A DNA stretch of 64,000 nucleotides, from contig CAWGLN010000001.1 of NCBI GenBank assembly GCA_963823435.1, forward strand, positions 468,872-532,871, written 5' to 3'. The stretch comes from an uncultured Gammaproteobacteria bacterium (GTDB lineage: Bacteria; Pseudomonadota; Gammaproteobacteria; Steroidobacterales; BM003). Below are positions 32,263-42,992 of this stretch, piece by piece; position 1 is the first letter of the stretch, and every line of letters starts with the position of its first letter. Both the position numbers and the translations under genes were made by a program. Under the pieces are notes generated by a model. It searched no databases, was not told the DNA's origin, and worked only from the letters and a program-made list of their open reading frames with translations.

Positions 32263-32767
32263 GTTTTAACTCCACTCAGTGCCTGCGAGCCGCAAGTGCC
32301 AAGGGGGAAAATCCGCCCTTAACATCGTGCAAAATTGAACCTTGTTCCAGCAATTTCAGGCGAACCACCCCGCCTGATTGCGTCCCTGGTTAAGGGCTAG
32401 ACGTTACCACTCGATCTCGAGTCCGGCAAATCGGATTCCTCAATAGGGGCGAGCGCTTGATATTCGCCAAAACAGGCACTTCGGGGCGGCGATAAGCCCG
32501 ATTCAGGCCAAGTTCAGGGCTCACGCTGCAGCGCCGTTCCGGGTCAAACCGACTACTGCCGCAGGGACTGTTTGGCAGGCAACTGCTAACACCCAGCACC
32601 CACGCTCTCATTCCCGGCACTTGGGACAAGAGGAACTCCCTGGGTTGGCCCGTTACCCTAGACCCGCTTCCGGTCCCGGTAAAATCAGCCTATTATCAGC
32701 GACCTTAGGTAGCAGACAGTTCCAGGCCATCCCGGGCCTCCCAAGCAGACAGGGTGGAGTGCACTTC

Positions 32768-33601
32768 GTGAGCAATACCAGTTCAAAAACGACGGTTCTC
32801 ATCCTTCTTGCTGCCATCCTGGCCGGCGCACTCTGGTTTTTCCGCAACGACATCCGTCCCCTGTCGGAGATACCCGTCGAGAATGTACCCGCGCCAGTTG
32901 TTACCGAGCCGGCACCCGTCAATCAAGAGACGCTTGCCCAAAGCGGCCCGACTCATCCGCTAGAGCCAAGCGCTGCTACGGGGACTTTACAGGAGGAACT
33001 CCCGCCTTTGCCGCCACTGGATGAAAGTGACAGCGAAATCCTGCAGGCGTTGATTGATACCTTTGGGCCCGACGTCGAGCGTGTGCTTGTAAGCCAGGCG
33101 CTGATAGACAAATTTGTGGCGACTGTGGATAGCCTGCCTGGCAGTTATCTGGCCGAGAAAATCCGGCCCGTTACCGTGCACCCGGAAGCGTTTAAAGTCG
33201 ATCCGGCAGACGCAGATGACCAGTTCTACCTCAGCCCCGCCAACTACAAGCGATACGATCCCGCGGTGAATCTTGTAACCGCGGTCGATCTGAACGACGT
33301 CGTAGCCGTGTACCGCCGCTATTACCCGCTGTTCCAGGAATCCTATGTTCGGCTTGGCTACCCGAATGCTCACTTCAATGATCGCGTGGTCGAAGTGATT
33401 GATCACCTGCTGGAAACACCCCAGGTGGAAGACCCCATTCTCCTGGTCCGACCCCACGTACTCTATAAGTATGCCGACCCGGAACTCGAAGCACTTTCCA
33501 GCGGCCAGAAAATCCTGGTCCGCATGGGCCCAGACCATGCAGCGAAGGTAAAACGGGTCCTGGAGGAGCTGCGTGCCTTAATCGTCCAGGGGCCTCGATA
33601 G
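32768..33601 (+). CDS. DUF3014-family membrane-anchored protein (copy A)
   Basis: GTG start after GGTGGAGTG. It reads SNTSSKTTVLILLAAILAGALWFFRNDIRP...LPPLDESDSEILQALIDTFGPDVERVLVSQALIDKFVATVDSLPG... A paralog lies at 39123..39968. The family name is from memory. Confidence 0.72.
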   Translation: MSNTSSKTTVLILLAAILAGALWFFRNDIRPLSEIPVENVPAPVVTEPAPVNQETLAQSGPTHPLEPSAATGTLQEELPPLPPLDESDSEILQALIDTFGPDVERVLVSQALIDKFVATVDSLPGSYLAEKIRPVTVHPEAFKVDPADADDQFYLSPANYKRYDPAVNLVTAVDLNDVVAVYRRYYPLFQESYVRLGYPNAHFNDRVVEVIDHLLETPQVEDPILLVRPHVLYKYADPELEALSSGQKILVRMGPDHAAKVKRVLEELRALIVQGPR

Positions 33602-33677
33602 TCGCCTGGCCGGACCACCACCCAAACCGGCAACAGGGCGGGTACGCAGCGCGTTGATTGGGATAGCCACCCTTGCT

Positions 33678-34334
33678 CTACAGCGGGCAGACATGGATGG
33701 TTTCTATTTCGAGACGAAAAGCGCCGTCCCGGGCGTCCGCGATAATAATACCCAGCAGGCGTGCCCGGGAAGCATCAAAGGCGGGCCCCGGCAGCTGCCT
33801 GCCGAAGACGGTCGGCTGCAGCTCGGAGAACAATACACTGCCATCTGACCACTCGCCCGGCCGCAGGTTCTGGATATCCGCCCGATACGCCACCGGGCGG
33901 CCACTGAACGAGGCATCCGTCTGCAAAATCAACTGGTAATGTCGCGTGTCTGGCAGCACCCTGAGCTTGAACAGATTCATGCCTTCCAGGATGCCTTGTG
34001 GCAATGCAGTTCGAATAGACGAGAACCCGCCACCATTGGTGTTTATATTGCCGGTAAATAGCAGGCTGCCGTCTGCATAGCTGGCTCCGCCGCTGGAGCG
34101 GCCACCCATTACATTGTCATTGACCGTCTGCCAAGGTGCAGCTTGCGTCGCGTTATCGAAGGCATACAGCAATTTGCAGTTCGGATTTTCGGCCATGGCA
34201 GTCTCCTCCCCCGCGAACATCGAAAGAGTAACAAGAGTCAGGCTCAGTAACAGCACGCGTGTGAAATTCGCTCGCGCCGACTCAAGGGCACAAAGCCGAA
34301 CTGTCGAATATTCGCGCACAGTGTATTGCGCCAT
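33678..34334 (-). CDS. CIA30-like (complex I intermediate-associated protein 30 family) secreted protein
   Basis: It carries WQTVNDNVMGGRSSGGASYADGSLLFTGNINTNGGGFSSIR, the CIA30 signature. I prefer the start at MAQYTV (34334), which gives a signal-like LLLSLTLVTLSMFAG. Confidence 0.72.
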   Translation of the reverse strand: MAQYTVREYSTVRLCALESARANFTRVLLLSLTLVTLSMFAGEETAMAENPNCKLLYAFDNATQAAPWQTVNDNVMGGRSSGGASYADGSLLFTGNINTNGGGFSSIRTALPQGILEGMNLFKLRVLPDTRHYQLILQTDASFSGRPVAYRADIQNLRPGEWSDGSVLFSELQPTVFGRQLPGPAFDASRARLLGIIIADARDGAFRLEIETIHVCPL

Positions 34335-34353
34335 CAGAGATATAGCCGAACGA

Positions 34354-41078: not shown

Positions 41079-41309
41079 ATGACCGACCACACGCTGGATG
41101 CGAAGGGGCTCAACTGCCCGTTGCCGATTATCAAGGCTCGCAAGGCTCTCAAGGAAGTGCCCACCAACGGCACTCTCGAGATCCTTGCCACCGATCCGGG
41201 ATCGGTAGCTGACTTCCAGGCCTTTTGCCGCATGACCGGTAATGAACTTATCGAACATTCACGGGATGGCGATGTTTACCGGTTTCTGATTAAACATTCT
41301 GCTGCCTGA
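41079..41309 (+). CDS. tusA: TusA/SirA-family sulfurtransferase
   Basis: 76 aa carrying LDAKGLNCPLPIIKARKAL, the CPxP active-site motif. Confidence 0.87.
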   Translation: MTDHTLDAKGLNCPLPIIKARKALKEVPTNGTLEILATDPGSVADFQAFCRMTGNELIEHSRDGDVYRFLIKHSAA

Positions 41310-41507
41310 TGGAAATTCCTTCCCAGTCGCCAGTTGCGCCCATCAGAAGCATTAATCCGAATCGCTAGCGCTTGCAAAAAACGACGAAGGCTATGACGGA
41401 AGCTGCGATCCCTGACCTACTCTACAACCCGGGATAATACTCGTGCTACGTCTGTGTCGCTTAGCGATCATCTCGCAGCAATCGCTGTTCATGCCGGCAC
41501 TTCCCGA

Positions 41508-42434
41508 CTAGGCCGGAAAGAAGTCTATCGGTTTGGTGGTGGTCACAGTCGCGACATCTTTCTCCTCAAACTGAAACATCTTTATGCGTTGCACCAGTTT
41601 GCGTTGCATTTCTTCATCATCCAGCTCACTTGACAAGATCTCTACCGCAGTCACTGCACCCGAGGGTGCGATGGTTAATTGGAGCACCAGCTTGCCTTGC
41701 AGCGCTGGATTGCGCCGCAGTGCACGATTGTAGAGTGCAAAAATCGAACCCTTGTTTTTGTCGAAGACCAGCTCTATCTCCTCACGGCTGCGCGACGGTG
41801 CACCACCGCCCTTTACAACCTGGGGTCCGGCGTCAGCCATACCGGCAACCGGACTGCTTACCCGTGTGGTGGAACGACCTTCCAGCCCGCCGCCACCTGT
41901 GTTGCGGCTCATACTATCGGTATTGATACCACCGCTGCCCTTGCCAGCGCTTGAGGTAATCAACGACCGCTCAACCCTGGCTGCCTTACCGGCACCCTGG
42001 CTAAGCCCCTGGGTTCCCAGCGCATTGCTTACGGCTGCGCTGTCTCGCAGGTCGGCCAGTTGATCGGCAAAGGGCAACAGACCCGCCTTGGCCGCATTTT
42101 CACGCGCCTTTACGCGGGGCTGTTGAGGCACCGGCTCCGGCTTGACCTTGGCCACCGGCACCACTACGTCGGGTTGCTTAACAACAGGCTCCAGTTTCTG
42201 CTCAATAACCGGTGGTGGCGGTGGTGGCGCCTGCTTCTCCAGCAACAGCTTGGCAAAGCGCGGGGGCAGTTCCTCGACTTGACTGCGATCCACCTCCGGC
42301 ACCGGCAACCATGGCATGACGAGACAGAAAGCCAGTACGGCCAGCGCAAACTGTTTTAGCAGTTTCCGAAACTGGTCGTCCTGCTCCTTAGACATCTCCC
42401 AGGGGAGCTGATAGGTCCGATATGTGACAATCAC
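41508..42434 (-). CDS. tonB: TonB-like energy transducer with an AgmX/PglI-type C-terminal domain
   Basis: It has an N-terminal anchor (LLKQFALAVLAFCLVMPWLP) and a Pro-rich spacer (QAPPPPPPVIEQKLEPVVKQP). The C-terminus is IFALYNRALRRNPALQGKLVLQLTIAPSGAVTAVEILSSELDDEEMQRKLVQRIKMFQF. It is the last gene of the exbB-exbD-exbD operon. Confidence 0.85.
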   Translation of the reverse strand: MIVTYRTYQLPWEMSKEQDDQFRKLLKQFALAVLAFCLVMPWLPVPEVDRSQVEELPPRFAKLLLEKQAPPPPPPVIEQKLEPVVKQPDVVVPVAKVKPEPVPQQPRVKARENAAKAGLLPFADQLADLRDSAAVSNALGTQGLSQGAGKAARVERSLITSSAGKGSGGINTDSMSRNTGGGGLEGRSTTRVSSPVAGMADAGPQVVKGGGAPSRSREEIELVFDKNKGSIFALYNRALRRNPALQGKLVLQLTIAPSGAVTAVEILSSELDDEEMQRKLVQRIKMFQFEEKDVATVTTTKPIDFFPA

Positions 42435-42464
42435 TATTGCTACACCTTCTTCATATGATCCGGA

Positions 42465-42992
42465 TCACCGGCCCGTTACCTTGGCCATAACCTGACCTGG
42501 TTCCGGAGCGGCCTGGGTAACAGCCAGGGATATTTTCCCGTACTGTGCCGCCGTACAGCTCGCCATAATTTTCTTGAGCAAACTGTAGGGCAATTCGCGG
42601 TCACCCATGATGGTGACTTCGCGGTTCTCGACATCGGCTTCGTCGTTCTTGCGCCGCATTCTCTGGGTCTGCAGACGCAACTCGTTCTCAAGCTCGGCGA
42701 TAACGACCTGCTCCTGGCGCATCACGTCCTTCACCTCGGCGACCAGCCGTCCCTGCACCAGTACCTGATCGGCAGTCACCATAATCACGACGTTCTCACG
42801 CGCCCTTTCCTCTGCATAGGATTCGGGCAACTGGAGGTCTTTCGCATTCGGCAGTACTTCCACGTCCTGCGAGTTGACCAGCAGAAAGAACACCAGGATT
42901 GTGAAGATATCCATGAGCGAAATCAGGTTGAGCCCTCCAACACTGCGACGCTTGTGATGCTTTTCCATGCGCTTGGCTTTACGAGATTTCAT
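42465..42992 (-). CDS. exbD: ExbD/TolR-family protein
   Basis: It reads RRSVGGLNLISLMDIFTILVFFLLV, the ExbD N-terminal TM signature. 175 aa. Confidence 0.88.
   Translation of the reverse strand: MKSRKAKRMEKHHKRRSVGGLNLISLMDIFTILVFFLLVNSQDVEVLPNAKDLQLPESYAEERARENVVIMVTADQVLVQGRLVAEVKDVMRQEQVVIAELENELRLQTQRMRRKNDEADVENREVTIMGDRELPYSLLKKIMASCTAAQYGKISLAVTQAAPEPGQVMAKVTGR

What the first reader, a model, noticed from the sequence alone, without database searches (positions are those of the whole stretch)
32640..42506. Chimeric duplication joining tonB plus an exbD relic to a second DUF3014 gene
- Block 38027-39026 copies the tonB gene and the last 13 codons of exbD from the intact operon at 41505-42506.
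- About 12 nt later, block 39039-39968 copies the DUF3014 gene and its leader from 32686-33601.
- The copies are clearly diverged, so the event is old, yet the tonB copy differs in frame by only one inserted base.
- A short stretch upstream of DUF3014 copy A (about 32643-32675, GGCCCGTTACC...GACCCGCTTCCGG) also resembles the exbD 3' end (GGCCCGTTACC...GACCTGGTTCCGG at 42470-42505).
- This hints either that DUF3014 was ancestrally adjacent to an exbD-tonB unit, or that this stretch is a shared regulatory element.
- Myxococcus Glt machinery uses two TonB-like proteins, so a second copy may matter functionally.
Basis: seen in the sequence. Interest (0 to 1): 0.55.

Follow-up and report, generated by a model that had tools for sequence, protein, structure and literature searches.

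The report
Two diverged locus versions joined in tandem
An uncultured gammaproteobacterium carries two versions of one DUF3014-to-tonB locus joined head to tail at a single illegitimate junction, most likely because DNA from a related lineage was added, so it has a second TonB and a second DUF3014 gene; this is a tidy but ordinary case of genome evolution.

Summary
Window 38030-39025 matches 41508-42505 (83.0%). Window 39014-39919 matches 32661-33564 (79.5%). The two blocks overlap by 12 nt at one junction, where the last 13 codons of an exbD gene meet a DUF3014 leader.

The interpretation needs revision in four ways.
- **The copies are not each other's closest relatives.** tonB1 nests among tonB genes of other lineages that sit beside a full-length exbD (96-99% bootstrap). 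DUF3014-A is sister to the single-copy gene of one of those lineages (100%). Support for tonB1+tonB2 or A+B as sisters is 0%.
- **Both parental arrangements exist as single copies.** One relative has DUF3014-DsrE2-TusA-tonB-exbD. Another has DUF3014-CIA30-...-tonB-exbD. The window is the second joined in front of the first. The divergence therefore does not date the event.
- **The frameshift is private to this assembly.** tonB1 is an intact 307 aa gene in other assemblies of the species. Two more private frameshifts lie nearby.
- **The stretch upstream of copy A is not conserved in relatives, and the organism is not Myxococcus.**

Best explanation: a related lineage's unit was added by homology-facilitated illegitimate recombination. 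Main rival: an ancient tandem duplication that later collapsed in relatives. Interest is modest.

The parts
31554..32275 (-). DUF3313 gene in the left flank, broken in the window by a private 1-nt insertion at 32005. It is also a mosaic. The N-terminal 86 codons are beta-like (97% aa to L183, 78% to L092). The rest is 80% to L183, 87% to L092 and 93% to L177.
32647..32673 (+). The 13-mer is the A-side homologue of the leader half of the junction. The 11-mer is specific to this lineage.
32661..32767 (+). Leader of DUF3014-A. It contains TATTAT (a -10-like hexamer) and a GGAG ribosome-binding site before the GTG start. It is homologous to 39014-39122.
32768..33601 (+). DUF3014 copy A (277 aa, C-terminus ...QGPR). 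This is the 'beta' type. dS is 0.19 to the single-copy gene of L183 and 0.79 to copy B.
33678..36814 (-). Cargo of the first unit: CIA30 (33678-34196), LssY_C (34354-35631), and a second LssY_C (35619-36814). The second is 398 aa in other assemblies and is split in the window by a private G4/G5 indel at 36013.
37083..37936 (+). Hypothetical 284-aa protein with no family match. It is the last cargo gene of the first unit and was found only in this species.
38030..38954 (-). tonB1. This is the 'beta' type TonB, 307 aa once the private extra base at 38240 is removed. As assembled it is a 258-aa truncated ORF (38178-38954) that loses the C-terminal domain.
38955..38984 (-). Native exbD-tonB spacer, carrying the ribosome-binding site (AAGGTG) of tonB1. 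It differs at 3 of 30 positions from the tonB2 spacer and at 1-3 of 30 from the full operons of L178 and L183.
38985..39025 (-). exbD stub: 13 codons plus stop, reading SEAGQIMAEVTGR*. It is beta-type, matching the ...QIMAEVTGR* ends of the full-length exbD genes of L178 and L183. It does not match the resident exbD end ...QVMAKVTGR*.
39014..39025 (.). Junction, GACCTG|CTTCCG. The left half is exbD-type and the C at 39020 is leader-type. TTCCG is shared by both parents, so it is the microhomology.
39026..39122 (+). Leader of DUF3014-B. Together with the stub and spacer it forms the 168-nt divergent intergenic region that must hold the promoters of tonB1 and DUF3014-B.
39123..39968 (+). DUF3014 copy B (281 aa, C-terminus ...APKQGSY, as in single-copy L092). 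This is the 'alpha' type.
40511..41309 (+). Cargo of the second unit: DsrE2 (40511-41056) and TusA (41079-41309). The same cargo sits in the same place in L092.
41508..42434 (-). tonB2 (308 aa), the last gene of the intact operon. This is the 'alpha' type and is closest to L092.
42465..44146 (-). exbD (42465-42992), exbD (42996-43499) and exbB (43496-44146). These are the presumed energisers for both TonB proteins.

Best explanation
The region is a head-to-tail join of two diverged versions ('haplotypes') of one locus. That locus consists of DUF3014, then a variable cargo slot, then the convergent tonB at the end of an exbB-exbD-exbD-tonB operon.

The 'beta' unit is DUF3014-A, CIA30, LssY, LssY, g284, tonB1 and the first 41 nt of exbD read backwards. 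It lies in front of the 'alpha' unit, which is DUF3014-B, DsrE2, TusA, tonB2 and the full operon.

**Most likely origin.** DNA from a related beta-type lineage entered an alpha-type genome. It integrated by homologous pairing on the left, in or near DUF3313 and the DUF3014 upstream region. On the right it joined illegitimately at a TTCCG microhomology between codon -13 of the donor's exbD and the recipient's DUF3014 promoter region. This is homology-facilitated illegitimate recombination (HFIR). Its outcome looks like a tandem duplication, but the two repeats were already 17-20% diverged.

**Consequences (inferred).**
- The cell gained a second TonB. It is 92% identical to the first, with only 2 of 93 differences in the C-terminal domain and 1 of 23 in the membrane anchor.
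- tonB1 has no ExbB/ExbD of its own. It must be energised by the neighbouring operon's ExbB-ExbD.
- tonB1 must be transcribed from the new 168-nt divergent intergenic region. It keeps its native spacer and ribosome-binding site.
- The cell also gained a second DUF3014 protein, 78% identical to the first.

**The frameshift.** The tonB1 frameshift in this window is private to the source assembly. It is probably a consensus error, or at most a very recent lesion.
For: **Shown**
1. Anatomy.
   - There are two direct repeats, and the end of one overlaps the start of the other by 12 nt.
   - The order is A ... tonB1-exbD' | B ... tonB2-exbD.
2. Both parental arrangements exist as single copies and are collinear with the window.
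   - L092 has DUF3313, DUF3014 (B-type C-terminus), DsrE2, TusA, tonB, exbD, exbD, exbB.
   - L183 has DUF3313, DUF3014 (A-type), CIA30, other cargo, tonB (tonB1-like), full exbD, exbD, exbB.
3. Phylogeny by NJ bootstrap.
   - (tonB1, L183, L178) gets 96-99%, and tonB1+tonB2 as sisters gets 0%.
   - (A, L183) gets 100%, and A+B as sisters gets 0%.
   - dS for A-L183 is 0.19, against 0.79 for A-B.
   - dS for tonB1-L183 is 0.57 (dN 0.015), against 1.05 (dN 0.041) for tonB1-tonB2.
4. The stub and spacer carry the derived states of the full-length beta exbD 3' ends of L178 and L183, and not those of the resident exbD.
   - They share QIMAEVTGR* and the GATAAT, GAG and GTG states.
   - They share the spacer CCGGAACA.
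   - The junction was therefore made from a beta-type exbD.
5. The backbone to the right of the junction is alpha-like in all six genes (win-L092 dS against win-L183 dS).
   - exbD: 0.53 against 0.75. Second exbD: 0.46 against 0.74.
   - exbB: 0.49 against 0.53. g211: 0.76 against 1.35.
   - TPR943: 0.59 against 1.06. g619: 0.86 against 1.27.
   - Genes of the first unit show the reverse: the L183/L092 ratio is 0.2 for A and 0.39 for tonB1.
6. Gene flow between lineages at this locus is directly visible.
   - A tract 92-96% identical to L183 spans about 31.9-33.3 kb, inside flanks that are 56-81% identical.
   - DUF3313 has a mosaic breakpoint near codon 86.
7. The junction-bearing arrangement was seen only in one species-level group (window, L089-L091). 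All other lineages sampled are single-copy.
8. The frameshift is private to the source contig.
   - L089, L090 and L091 encode an intact 307 aa. In the 90% cluster, four other members are 307 aa and L183's operonic tonB is 308 aa. Only the 1,685,433-nt source contig carries the 258-aa form.
   - SNPs between the window and L089 are 32 synonymous and 5 non-synonymous. Yet all three indels against close relatives are frameshifts in conserved genes.

**From the literature**
- HFIR integrates DNA by homology at one end and illegitimate joining at the other (PMC3240628 abstract).
- It has been proposed to generate arrays that keep displaced genes and 3' stubs (PMC5361080, section 13).
Against: - The donor is not identified. 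No sampled beta-type relative carries the exact cargo CIA30-LssY-LssY-g284 next to tonB.
  - L183 has different cargo after CIA30.
  - L177 has CIA30-LssY-LssY but no tonB within 7 kb.
- Similarity of the first unit to L183 is uneven: dS is 0.19 for A, 0.38 for CIA30 and 0.57 for tonB1. At least one further recombination event is therefore needed, and the breakpoint near 32.0 kb may belong to that later event rather than to the original integration.
- Copy B is not clearly closest to L092. dS is 0.91, against 0.79 to A, and (B, L092) gets only 31-61% bootstrap.
- Synonymous sites are close to saturation, and only NJ trees could be built.
- An ancient in-genome duplication followed by collapses predicts much of the same pattern.
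- Nothing here shows that tonB1 is expressed. No sigma-70 consensus promoter was found in 37900-39300.
Confidence: 0.55

Rival explanations
1. An ancient in-genome tandem duplication. A unit running from the DUF3014 leader to codon -13 of exbD duplicated in the common ancestor of all these lineages, by illegitimate crossing-over at the same microhomology. The two units then diverged and swapped or lost cargo. The single-copy relatives are secondary collapses: A x B recombination gave the L092 type, and tonB1 x tonB2 recombination gave the L183 and L178 type. Only the window's species kept both units.
For: - The geometry is exactly that of a tandem duplication.
- Tandem repeats do collapse by homologous recombination, and each single-copy type needs only one such deletion.
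- dS between the copies (0.79-1.05) is of the same order as dS between the lineages. For M3 it is 0.47-0.53 and for TPR625 0.97-1.10.
- The placement of L092 relative to A and B is unresolved.
- Mosaic patches in L178 (tonB1-like in some stretches, tonB2-like in others) could be gene conversion between paralogues.
Against: - The exbD 3' ends of L178 and L183 are beta-type (stub-like) to within about 17-22 nt of the junction point. A tonB1 x tonB2 collapse would need its crossover in the last few bases of the repeat.
- In that scenario the stub, while non-coding, would have had to stay in frame and conservatively substituted, and then become coding again.
- It needs at least three independent collapses or rearrangements (L092, L183/L178, L177), against one event for the merger model.
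- It does not explain why genes of the first unit are much closer to L183 than the flanking backbone is (ratio 0.2-0.4 against 1.1-1.8), unless extra recombination is added.
- The junction is known from one species only.
Confidence: 0.3
2. A recent in-genome duplication in which tonB1 was copied from the resident tonB2 operon and DUF3014-B from copy A, followed by ordinary divergence. tonB1 is then a decaying pseudogene.
For: - The two repeats and the frameshift in the window.
- All three private frameshifts lie in the first unit, at 32005, 36013 and 38240, and none lies in 39-48.8 kb. That could hint at decay of redundant genes in this strain.
Against: - The copies are never sisters (0% bootstrap). 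Each has a closer relative in another genome.
- tonB1 against tonB2 gives omega 0.04, with no other defect.
- tonB1 is intact in L089, L090 and L091, and five of the six members of its 90% cluster are full length.
- The stub matches foreign exbD genes better than the resident one.
Confidence: 0.05
3. The short stretch upstream of copy A and the exbD 3' end are a shared functional (regulatory) element, and this element guided the rearrangement or explains the similarity.
For: - An exact 11-mer plus an 11/13 13-mer occur in the same order at both sites.
- The shuffle test gives p = 0.0065 for the window's own pair.
- The 13-mer overlaps a plausible -35 position, 17 nt upstream of TATTAT (sequence inspection).
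Against: - The 11-mer is absent at the orthologous positions of L183 (GACCCCGCTACC), L097, L177 and L092. It is also absent from the exbD ends of L092, L178, L183, L093, L179 and L180.
- Nine other upstream-versus-exbD comparisons give p = 0.03-0.87. The lowest uses a different alignment.
- The same 11-mer also occurs inside the coding sequence of DUF3014-A at 33165.
- The exbD end is constrained as coding sequence.
Confidence: 0.05
4. A metagenome mis-assembly concatenated two co-occurring strains that carry the alpha and the beta version of the locus.
For: - Both versions exist separately in nature.
- The source contig carries private indels.
Against: - The same junction, base for base, is present in three other assemblies from different samples (L089, L090, L091).
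- The two parents share only 5-12 nt at the join, far below any assembler k-mer.
- L089 spans from copy A's 3' part to beyond exbB in one 15.6-kb contig.
Confidence: 0.02

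Closest known systems
Homology-facilitated illegitimate recombination (HFIR) during natural transformation or conjugation. It was first described in Acinetobacter, Streptococcus pneumoniae and Pseudomonas stutzeri, later in E. coli conjugation (PMC3240628). It has been proposed for Vibrio cholerae T6SS effector-immunity arrays and Rhs 'orphan' arrays (PMC5361080).
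   Same: - A one-sided homologous anchor is combined with a microhomology junction at the other end.
- Incoming DNA from a relative is added rather than exchanged.
- The displaced or incoming module keeps a 3' stub of the neighbouring gene. Here that is 13 codons of exbD. In the arrays it is orphan 3' regions.
- The result is a direct array of diverged homologous modules.
   Different: - The case here is inferred from comparative sequence only, and the donor is unknown.
- The modules are not toxin-immunity pairs. They are a housekeeping-type TonB plus a DUF3014 gene with metabolic and unknown cargo.
- The homologous crossover on the left is not pinned down.
Tandem duplication (merodiploidy) by unequal crossing-over, including transformation-triggered merodiploids in S. 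pneumoniae (PMC3784515).
   Same: - Direct repeats share a single novel junction that joins the end of the unit to its start.
- The structure can collapse again by homologous recombination.
- It offers raw material for paralogue evolution.
   Different: - In classical duplications the two copies are identical at birth and are sister sequences. Here they are not sisters.
- The junction lies at a microhomology of at most 12 nt, not at a long repeat such as an IS element.
- The unit is small, about 3.5-6.4 kb.
Multiple TonB paralogues that share or lack dedicated ExbB-ExbD. Examples from my own knowledge are E. coli tonB, which is unlinked to exbBD, Pseudomonas aeruginosa tonB1, and Vibrio TonB1/TonB2/TonB3.
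   Same: - An 'orphan' tonB has no adjacent exbB or exbD.
- It lies in a genome that has a complete exbB-exbD-exbD-tonB operon nearby.
- Its membrane anchor is nearly identical, so sharing of the energiser is plausible.
   Different: - The two proteins are 92% identical, with almost identical C-terminal domains. There is no sign of the partner specialisation seen among classical paralogues.
- Function was not tested.
Myxococcus xanthus gliding-motility TonB-like proteins GltG (AgmX) and GltJ.
   Same: The C-terminal domain belongs to the same NCBIfam domain model, NF033768 'AgmX/PglI C-terminal domain' (68.5 and 69.2 bits, cut-off 40).
   Different: - Scores against the GltG and GltJ equivalog models are 30-36 bits, against cut-offs of 650 and 450.
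- The proteins are 307-308 aa, not about 650-670.
- The organism is a 56% G+C gammaproteobacterial MAG.
- The neighbours are ExbB, ExbD and TPR genes, not a Glt cluster.

Membership tests
TonB family protein (both copies) | C-terminal TonB-type domain recognised by curated models | tested here: met
   - NF033768: 68.5 and 69.2 bits (cut-off 40).
- TIGR01352 tonB_Cterm: 27.6 and 27.3 bits (cut-off 27.1), so barely above threshold.
- Pfam TonB_C: only 19.7 bits, below its 24.6 cut-off.
TonB family protein (both copies) | N-terminal membrane anchor followed by a proline-rich spacer | tested here: met
   Read from the sequence: hydrophobic FALAVLAFC(L/I)VMPWL, then PPPPP(P) and a Pro/Lys/Glu-rich linker. 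No topology predictor was run.
TonB family protein (both copies) | Genetic linkage to ExbB/ExbD energiser genes | tested here: met
   - tonB2 is the last gene of exbB-exbD-exbD-tonB.
- tonB1 has only a 13-codon exbD stub, and the nearest exbB and exbD genes lie 3.5 kb away. Linkage is not required for membership; E. coli tonB is unlinked (own knowledge).
Myxococcus GltG/GltJ gliding-motility TonB-like proteins | Score above the equivalog cut-off, and comparable length and architecture | tested here: not met
   30.1-36 bits against a 650 cut-off (GltG) and 29.9-30.8 bits against a 450 cut-off (GltJ). Only the last 80-150 residues align.
DUF3014 (PF11219), both copies | Full-length match to the Pfam model above the gathering score | tested here: met
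   185.4 and 183.6 bits, cut-off 25, model positions 1-156 of 156.
Classical in-genome tandem duplication | Direct repeats with one novel end-to-start junction, and a single-copy relative collinear with one unit | tested here: met
Classical in-genome tandem duplication | The two copies are each other's closest relatives (sisters) | tested here: not met
   - Bootstrap is 0% for tonB1+tonB2 and for A+B.
- tonB1 groups with L183 and L178 at 96-99%.
- A groups with L183 at 100%.
Homology-facilitated illegitimate recombination product | Illegitimate junction at a short microhomology at one end of the added DNA | tested here: met
   The junction is GACCTG|CTTCCG. TTCCG is common to exbD (GGTTCCGG) and to the DUF3014 upstream region (GCTTCCGG or GCTTCCGA).
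Homology-facilitated illegitimate recombination product | The added segment derives from a different lineage than the flanking backbone | tested here: met
   - Genes of the first unit are closest to L183: dS 0.19, 0.38 and 0.57.
- All six right-flank genes are closest to L092.
- The left flank is not L183-like.
Homology-facilitated illegitimate recombination product | Homologous crossover (anchor) at the other end | tested here: inconclusive
   A mosaic breakpoint lies near 32.0 kb, at codon 86 of DUF3313. It may instead mark a later, separate homologous exchange, because A (dS 0.19) is much closer to L183 than tonB1 is (0.57).
Homology-facilitated illegitimate recombination product | Actual uptake and integration of foreign DNA (competence or conjugation) | not testable with these tools
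   This requires experiments or the donor genome.
Pseudogene (tonB1) | Disrupted reading frame fixed in the lineage, with relaxed constraint | tested here: not met
   - One private extra base occurs only in the source contig.
- The gene is intact in L089-L091, and five of the six members of its 90% cluster are full length (307-308 aa).
- Omega is 0.025-0.04.

The most novel reading that the evidence does not exclude
The second TonB and the second DUF3014 gene were born not by copying within the genome but by adding a related lineage's version of the same locus next to the resident one, through homology-facilitated illegitimate recombination. Both parental single-copy versions are still extant in relatives, and the junction is resolved to the base. 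The slot between DUF3014 and tonB would then be a recombination hot spot. It carries different cargo in every lineage, and such 'heteroallelic tandem additions' would be a natural route to paralogues of core envelope genes in uncultured marine bacteria.
Probability: 0.5. Interest if true: 0.45.

Novelty: new member of a known kind. Interest (0 to 1): 0.33.

Why it matters
**Method.** The case is a caution. Divergence between two repeats in one genome does not date a duplication when the repeats can come from different lineages. A frameshift in a single long assembly does not make a pseudogene.

**Biology.** The region is a cleanly resolved natural example of paralogues arising by addition of a foreign allele. 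It has an identifiable junction, and both parental arrangements are preserved elsewhere. It also flags a small cargo-swapping hot spot bounded by DUF3014 and tonB.

**Limits.** It does not reveal a new molecular system. The functions of DUF3014 and of the second TonB remain untested.

Tried and rejected
- **'The exbD stub is under selection.'** At first the stub (7 of 41 differences) and the spacer (3 of 30) looked far more conserved than 4-fold sites (46% different). I dropped this once L178 and L183 showed that the stub is simply a beta-type exbD end.
- **A mini-ORF in the stub (MAEVTGR*) or new promoter hexamers (GATAAT).** The same bases occur in the functional exbD of L178, so they are not innovations.
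- **Sigma-70 promoter scan of 37900-39300.** No sites were found.
- **Fur box.** Nothing above chance lies near tonB1, B or exbB. The 13/19 hit at 38940 lies over the tonB1 start (the palindrome AGTGACAATCACT) and is one of eight hits at that level. The best site in the window is elsewhere, at 53740.
- **Conserved DUF3014 neighbours.** tblastn with ExbB, ExbD, TonB, CIA30, LssY and DsrE2 against 157 other DUF3014 loci found none. Clustering of flanking ORFs gave no partner in more than 18 of 157 loci.
- **DUF3014 function.**
  - No paper mentions it and it has no PDB sequence relative.
  - The AlphaFold model has mean pLDDT 66, with a helical domain of about 80-88 over residues 150-270.
- **Is L092's DUF3014 an A/B chimera (a collapse product)?** Informative sites split 39 A-like, 17 B-like and 16 other, with B-like sites at both ends. 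The test is uninformative without a close outgroup.
- **Dating L092 relative to the A/B split.** It is unresolved, with bootstrap below 65%.
- **A systematic error at CTNAG methylation motifs as the cause of the indels.** Only 1 of 23 CTNAG sites differs.

Full report
**1. The observation**

A BLASTN of the window against itself gives two and only two real internal matches.
- 38030-39025 matches 41508-42505 (83.0% identity, 999 columns).
- 39014-39919 matches 32661-33564 (79.5% identity, 910 columns).

The first block contains a complete tonB on the minus strand, the 30-nt exbD-tonB spacer, and the last 13 codons plus stop of exbD. The second block contains about 107 nt of leader and almost all of a DUF3014 (PF11219) gene.

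The blocks do not lie 12 nt apart. They overlap by 12 nt (39014-39025, GACCTGCTTCCG), and this is the junction. The arrangement is present in three more assemblies from other samples: L089 (99.67% identical over 15.6 kb), L090 and L091. It is therefore real DNA and not a mis-join.

**2. Gene content**

Reading left to right:
- DUF3313 (-)
- DUF3014-A (32768-33601, +)
- CIA30, LssY_C, LssY_C (-)
- a 284-aa hypothetical protein (+)
- tonB1 (38030-38954, -)
- the exbD stub (38985-39025)
- DUF3014-B (39123-39968, +)
- DsrE2 and TusA (+)
- tonB2 (41508-42434, -)
- exbD, exbD, exbB (-), followed by TPR genes

Both TonBs match the AgmX/PglI-type C-terminal domain model NF033768 (68.5 and 69.2 bits, cut-off 40). 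They only just pass TIGR01352. They are far below the Myxococcus GltG and GltJ equivalog cut-offs.

The window is 56% G+C. Its closest public genome fragment is a gammaproteobacterial MAG, N3D-Bin_17, at 97.7% identity. The Myxococcus analogy is therefore only a shared domain.

**3. The frameshift**

tonB1 has one defect. The window reads CTGCAGA where L089, L090 and L091 read CTAAGA. Removing one base restores a 307-aa protein identical to the cluster representative P0003.
- In the 90% cluster, five of the six members are full length (four of 307 aa, plus L183's operonic tonB at 308 aa). Only the member on the 1,685,433-nt source contig is the truncated 258-aa form.
- The window has two more private single-base indels that break genes which are intact in other assemblies of the species.
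  - One is at 36013, in LssY_C (G4 against G5).
  - The other is at 32005, in DUF3313.
- SNPs between the window and L089 are 32 synonymous and 5 non-synonymous. Selection has therefore filtered the real differences between these strains.
- I conclude that the frameshifts are most likely consensus errors of a long assembly. Very recent lesions are the less likely alternative.
- All three lie in the first unit. This is noted but is not significant.

**4. Single-copy relatives**

L092 is a 48.8-kb JGI contig. It is collinear with the window on both sides but has one DUF3014 (with a B-type C-terminus), DsrE2, TusA, and one tonB in a full operon.

L183 is a 19-kb ENA contig. It also has the same flanks and is single-copy. 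Its DUF3014 is A-type and is followed by CIA30 and other cargo. Its tonB is tonB1-like and sits next to a full-length exbD.

L177 and L097 show A-type DUF3014 followed by CIA30. L178 shows a tonB1-like tonB beside a full exbD.

The window is therefore the 'beta' version of the locus placed in front of the 'alpha' version.

**5. The copies are not sisters**

| Comparison | Result |
|---|---|
| tonB1-tonB2 | dS 1.05, dN 0.041 |
| tonB1-L183 | dS 0.57, dN 0.015 |
| A-B | dS 0.79 |
| A-L183 | dS 0.19 |
| (tonB1, L183, L178) bootstrap | 96-99% |
| (tonB1, L183) bootstrap | 81-94% |
| (A, L183) bootstrap | 100% |
| tonB1+tonB2 or A+B as sisters | 0% |

The stub and spacer beside tonB1 carry the states of the full-length beta exbD ends. 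These are ...QIMAEVTGR* and the spacer CCGGAACA.ATGA.AAAGG. They do not carry the resident ...QVMAKVTGR*. The junction was therefore made from a beta-type exbD.

This also removes my earlier idea that the stub is unusually conserved because it is under selection.

**6. Backbone against insert**

All six genes to the right of tonB2 are closer to L092 than to L183; the L183/L092 dS ratio is 1.1-1.8. The left-flank genes are not L183-like either. Genes of the first unit show the reverse: the ratio is 0.2 for A and 0.39 for tonB1.

Sliding identity to L183 jumps from 0.56-0.81 to 0.90-0.96 between about 31.9 and 33.3 kb. The DUF3313 protein switches from L092/L177-like to L183-like near codon 86. 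Exchange of DNA between these lineages at this locus is thus directly visible.

**7. The junction**

In GACCTG|CTTCCG, the left part is exbD-type and the C at 39020 is leader-type. TTCCG is common to both parents.

The 13-mer upstream of copy A (GACCCGCTTCCGG) is A's version of the same leader sequence. It is identical in single-copy L183.

- It is absent at the orthologous site in every relative, and from their exbD ends.
- It occurs a third time inside the coding sequence of copy A.
- It gives the only nominally strong shuffle-test result (p = 0.0065, against 0.03-0.87 for nine other pairings).

I treat it as a coincidence, or at most a tiny conversion patch. It is not a regulatory element.

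**8. Explanation**

*Best model (confidence 0.55).*
- A beta-type segment from a related lineage was added to an alpha-type genome by homology-facilitated illegitimate recombination.
- The homologous anchor was on the left. The illegitimate join was at the TTCCG microhomology on the right.
- The mechanism is established experimentally (PMC3240628).
- It has been proposed for arrays that retain displaced genes and 3' stubs (PMC5361080).
- Transformation can also create tandem merodiploids (PMC3784515).

*Main rival (0.3).* An ancient in-genome tandem duplication was followed by independent collapses in the relatives.
- It fits the geometry.
- It needs several extra events.
- Its crossovers would have to fall in the last bases of the repeat.
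- Extra recombination is required to explain the contrast between backbone and insert.

Synonymous saturation, NJ-only trees and the unknown donor keep the question open.

**9. How it works now (inferred)**

The two TonBs are 92% identical. Differences are distributed as follows:

| Region | Differences |
|---|---|
| C-terminal domain | 2 of 93 |
| Membrane anchor | 1 of 23 |
| Linker | 20 of 170 |

tonB1 should therefore use the same ExbB-ExbD and the same partners as tonB2. It probably differs mainly in regulation. It must be transcribed from the new 168-nt divergent region, and it keeps its native ribosome-binding site. No consensus promoter or Fur box was found there.

The omega values are 0.04 for tonB and 0.16 for DUF3014. 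They largely reflect selection in the separate lineages before the merger. Evidence for retention after the merger is limited to intact frames in all other strains sampled.

**10. DUF3014**

- It is not linked to exbD or tonB outside this small clade: 0 of 157 loci, and no conserved neighbour at all.
- There is no literature on it.
- It has no solved relative.
- The model is of moderate confidence: a helical domain behind an N-terminal anchor.
- Its function stays unknown. The co-occurrence with tonB here is explained by locus structure, not by demonstrated function.

**11. Verdict**

The finding is real and the anatomy is well resolved. This is a new example of a known kind of event. It is of modest interest, chiefly as a clean natural case and as a caution about dating duplications from divergence.

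Noticed in passing
window 32005, 36013, 38240: - Three single-base indels are private to this assembly. Each breaks a gene (DUF3313, LssY_C, tonB1) that is intact in other assemblies of the same species.
- All three lie in the first (beta-like) unit. None lies in the 9.8 kb to its right that could be compared.
- Two of them turn CTNAG into 6-bp palindromes (CTCGAG, CTGCAG). However, only 1 of 23 CTNAG sites is affected, so this is not a systematic motif error.
   Followed up: partly
window 39051, 39054, 39057, 39060: Four G (window) against A (L089, L090, L091) differences, spaced every 3 nt, lie just downstream of the TATTAT hexamer in the DUF3014-B leader. This is an odd cluster in a candidate promoter or 5' UTR.
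   Followed up: no
window 33602-38029 and 39969-41507; loci L092, L183, L177, L085, L087: The slot between the 3' ends of DUF3014 and tonB holds different cargo in every lineage:
- DsrE2-TusA
- CIA30-LssY-LssY-g284
- CIA30-EF-hand-response regulator-histidine kinase-hydrolase
- CIA30-LssY-LssY-radical SAM genes
- in L085 and L087 (99.2% and 95.9% identical to tonB2), a small CxxCH cytochrome-c-like gene that starts 19 nt after the tonB stop
This looks like a recombination hot spot.
   Followed up: partly
window 31554-32275 (DUF3313): The protein is a mosaic in this species. The N-terminal 86 residues are 97% identical to L183 and 78% to L092. The remaining 149 residues are 80% identical to L183, 87% to L092 and 93% to L177. 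This indicates a homologous recombination breakpoint inside the gene.
   Followed up: partly
window 53740-53758: The best Fur-box-like site in the window is GATCCTGATAATCATTTTC, 16 of 19 matches to the E. coli consensus. It lies about 10 kb beyond the exbB operon. The neighbouring genes were not examined.
   Followed up: no
L018 9125-9700 and 10001-10600 (MAG SMAG_U7134); L017 582-788 and 2503-3090: Other, unrelated genomes also carry two adjacent or nearby DUF3014 genes or fragments.
   Followed up: no
window 44195-52443 and L092, L093, L096, L183: The operon upstream of exbB is conserved across all relatives examined. Its genes are AhpC/redoxin, a 181-aa protein, a 619-aa protein, a 943-aa TPR protein, a 211-aa TPR lipoprotein-like protein, and a protein of about 110 aa. 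This suggests a dedicated TonB-dependent envelope system of unknown role.
   Followed up: no
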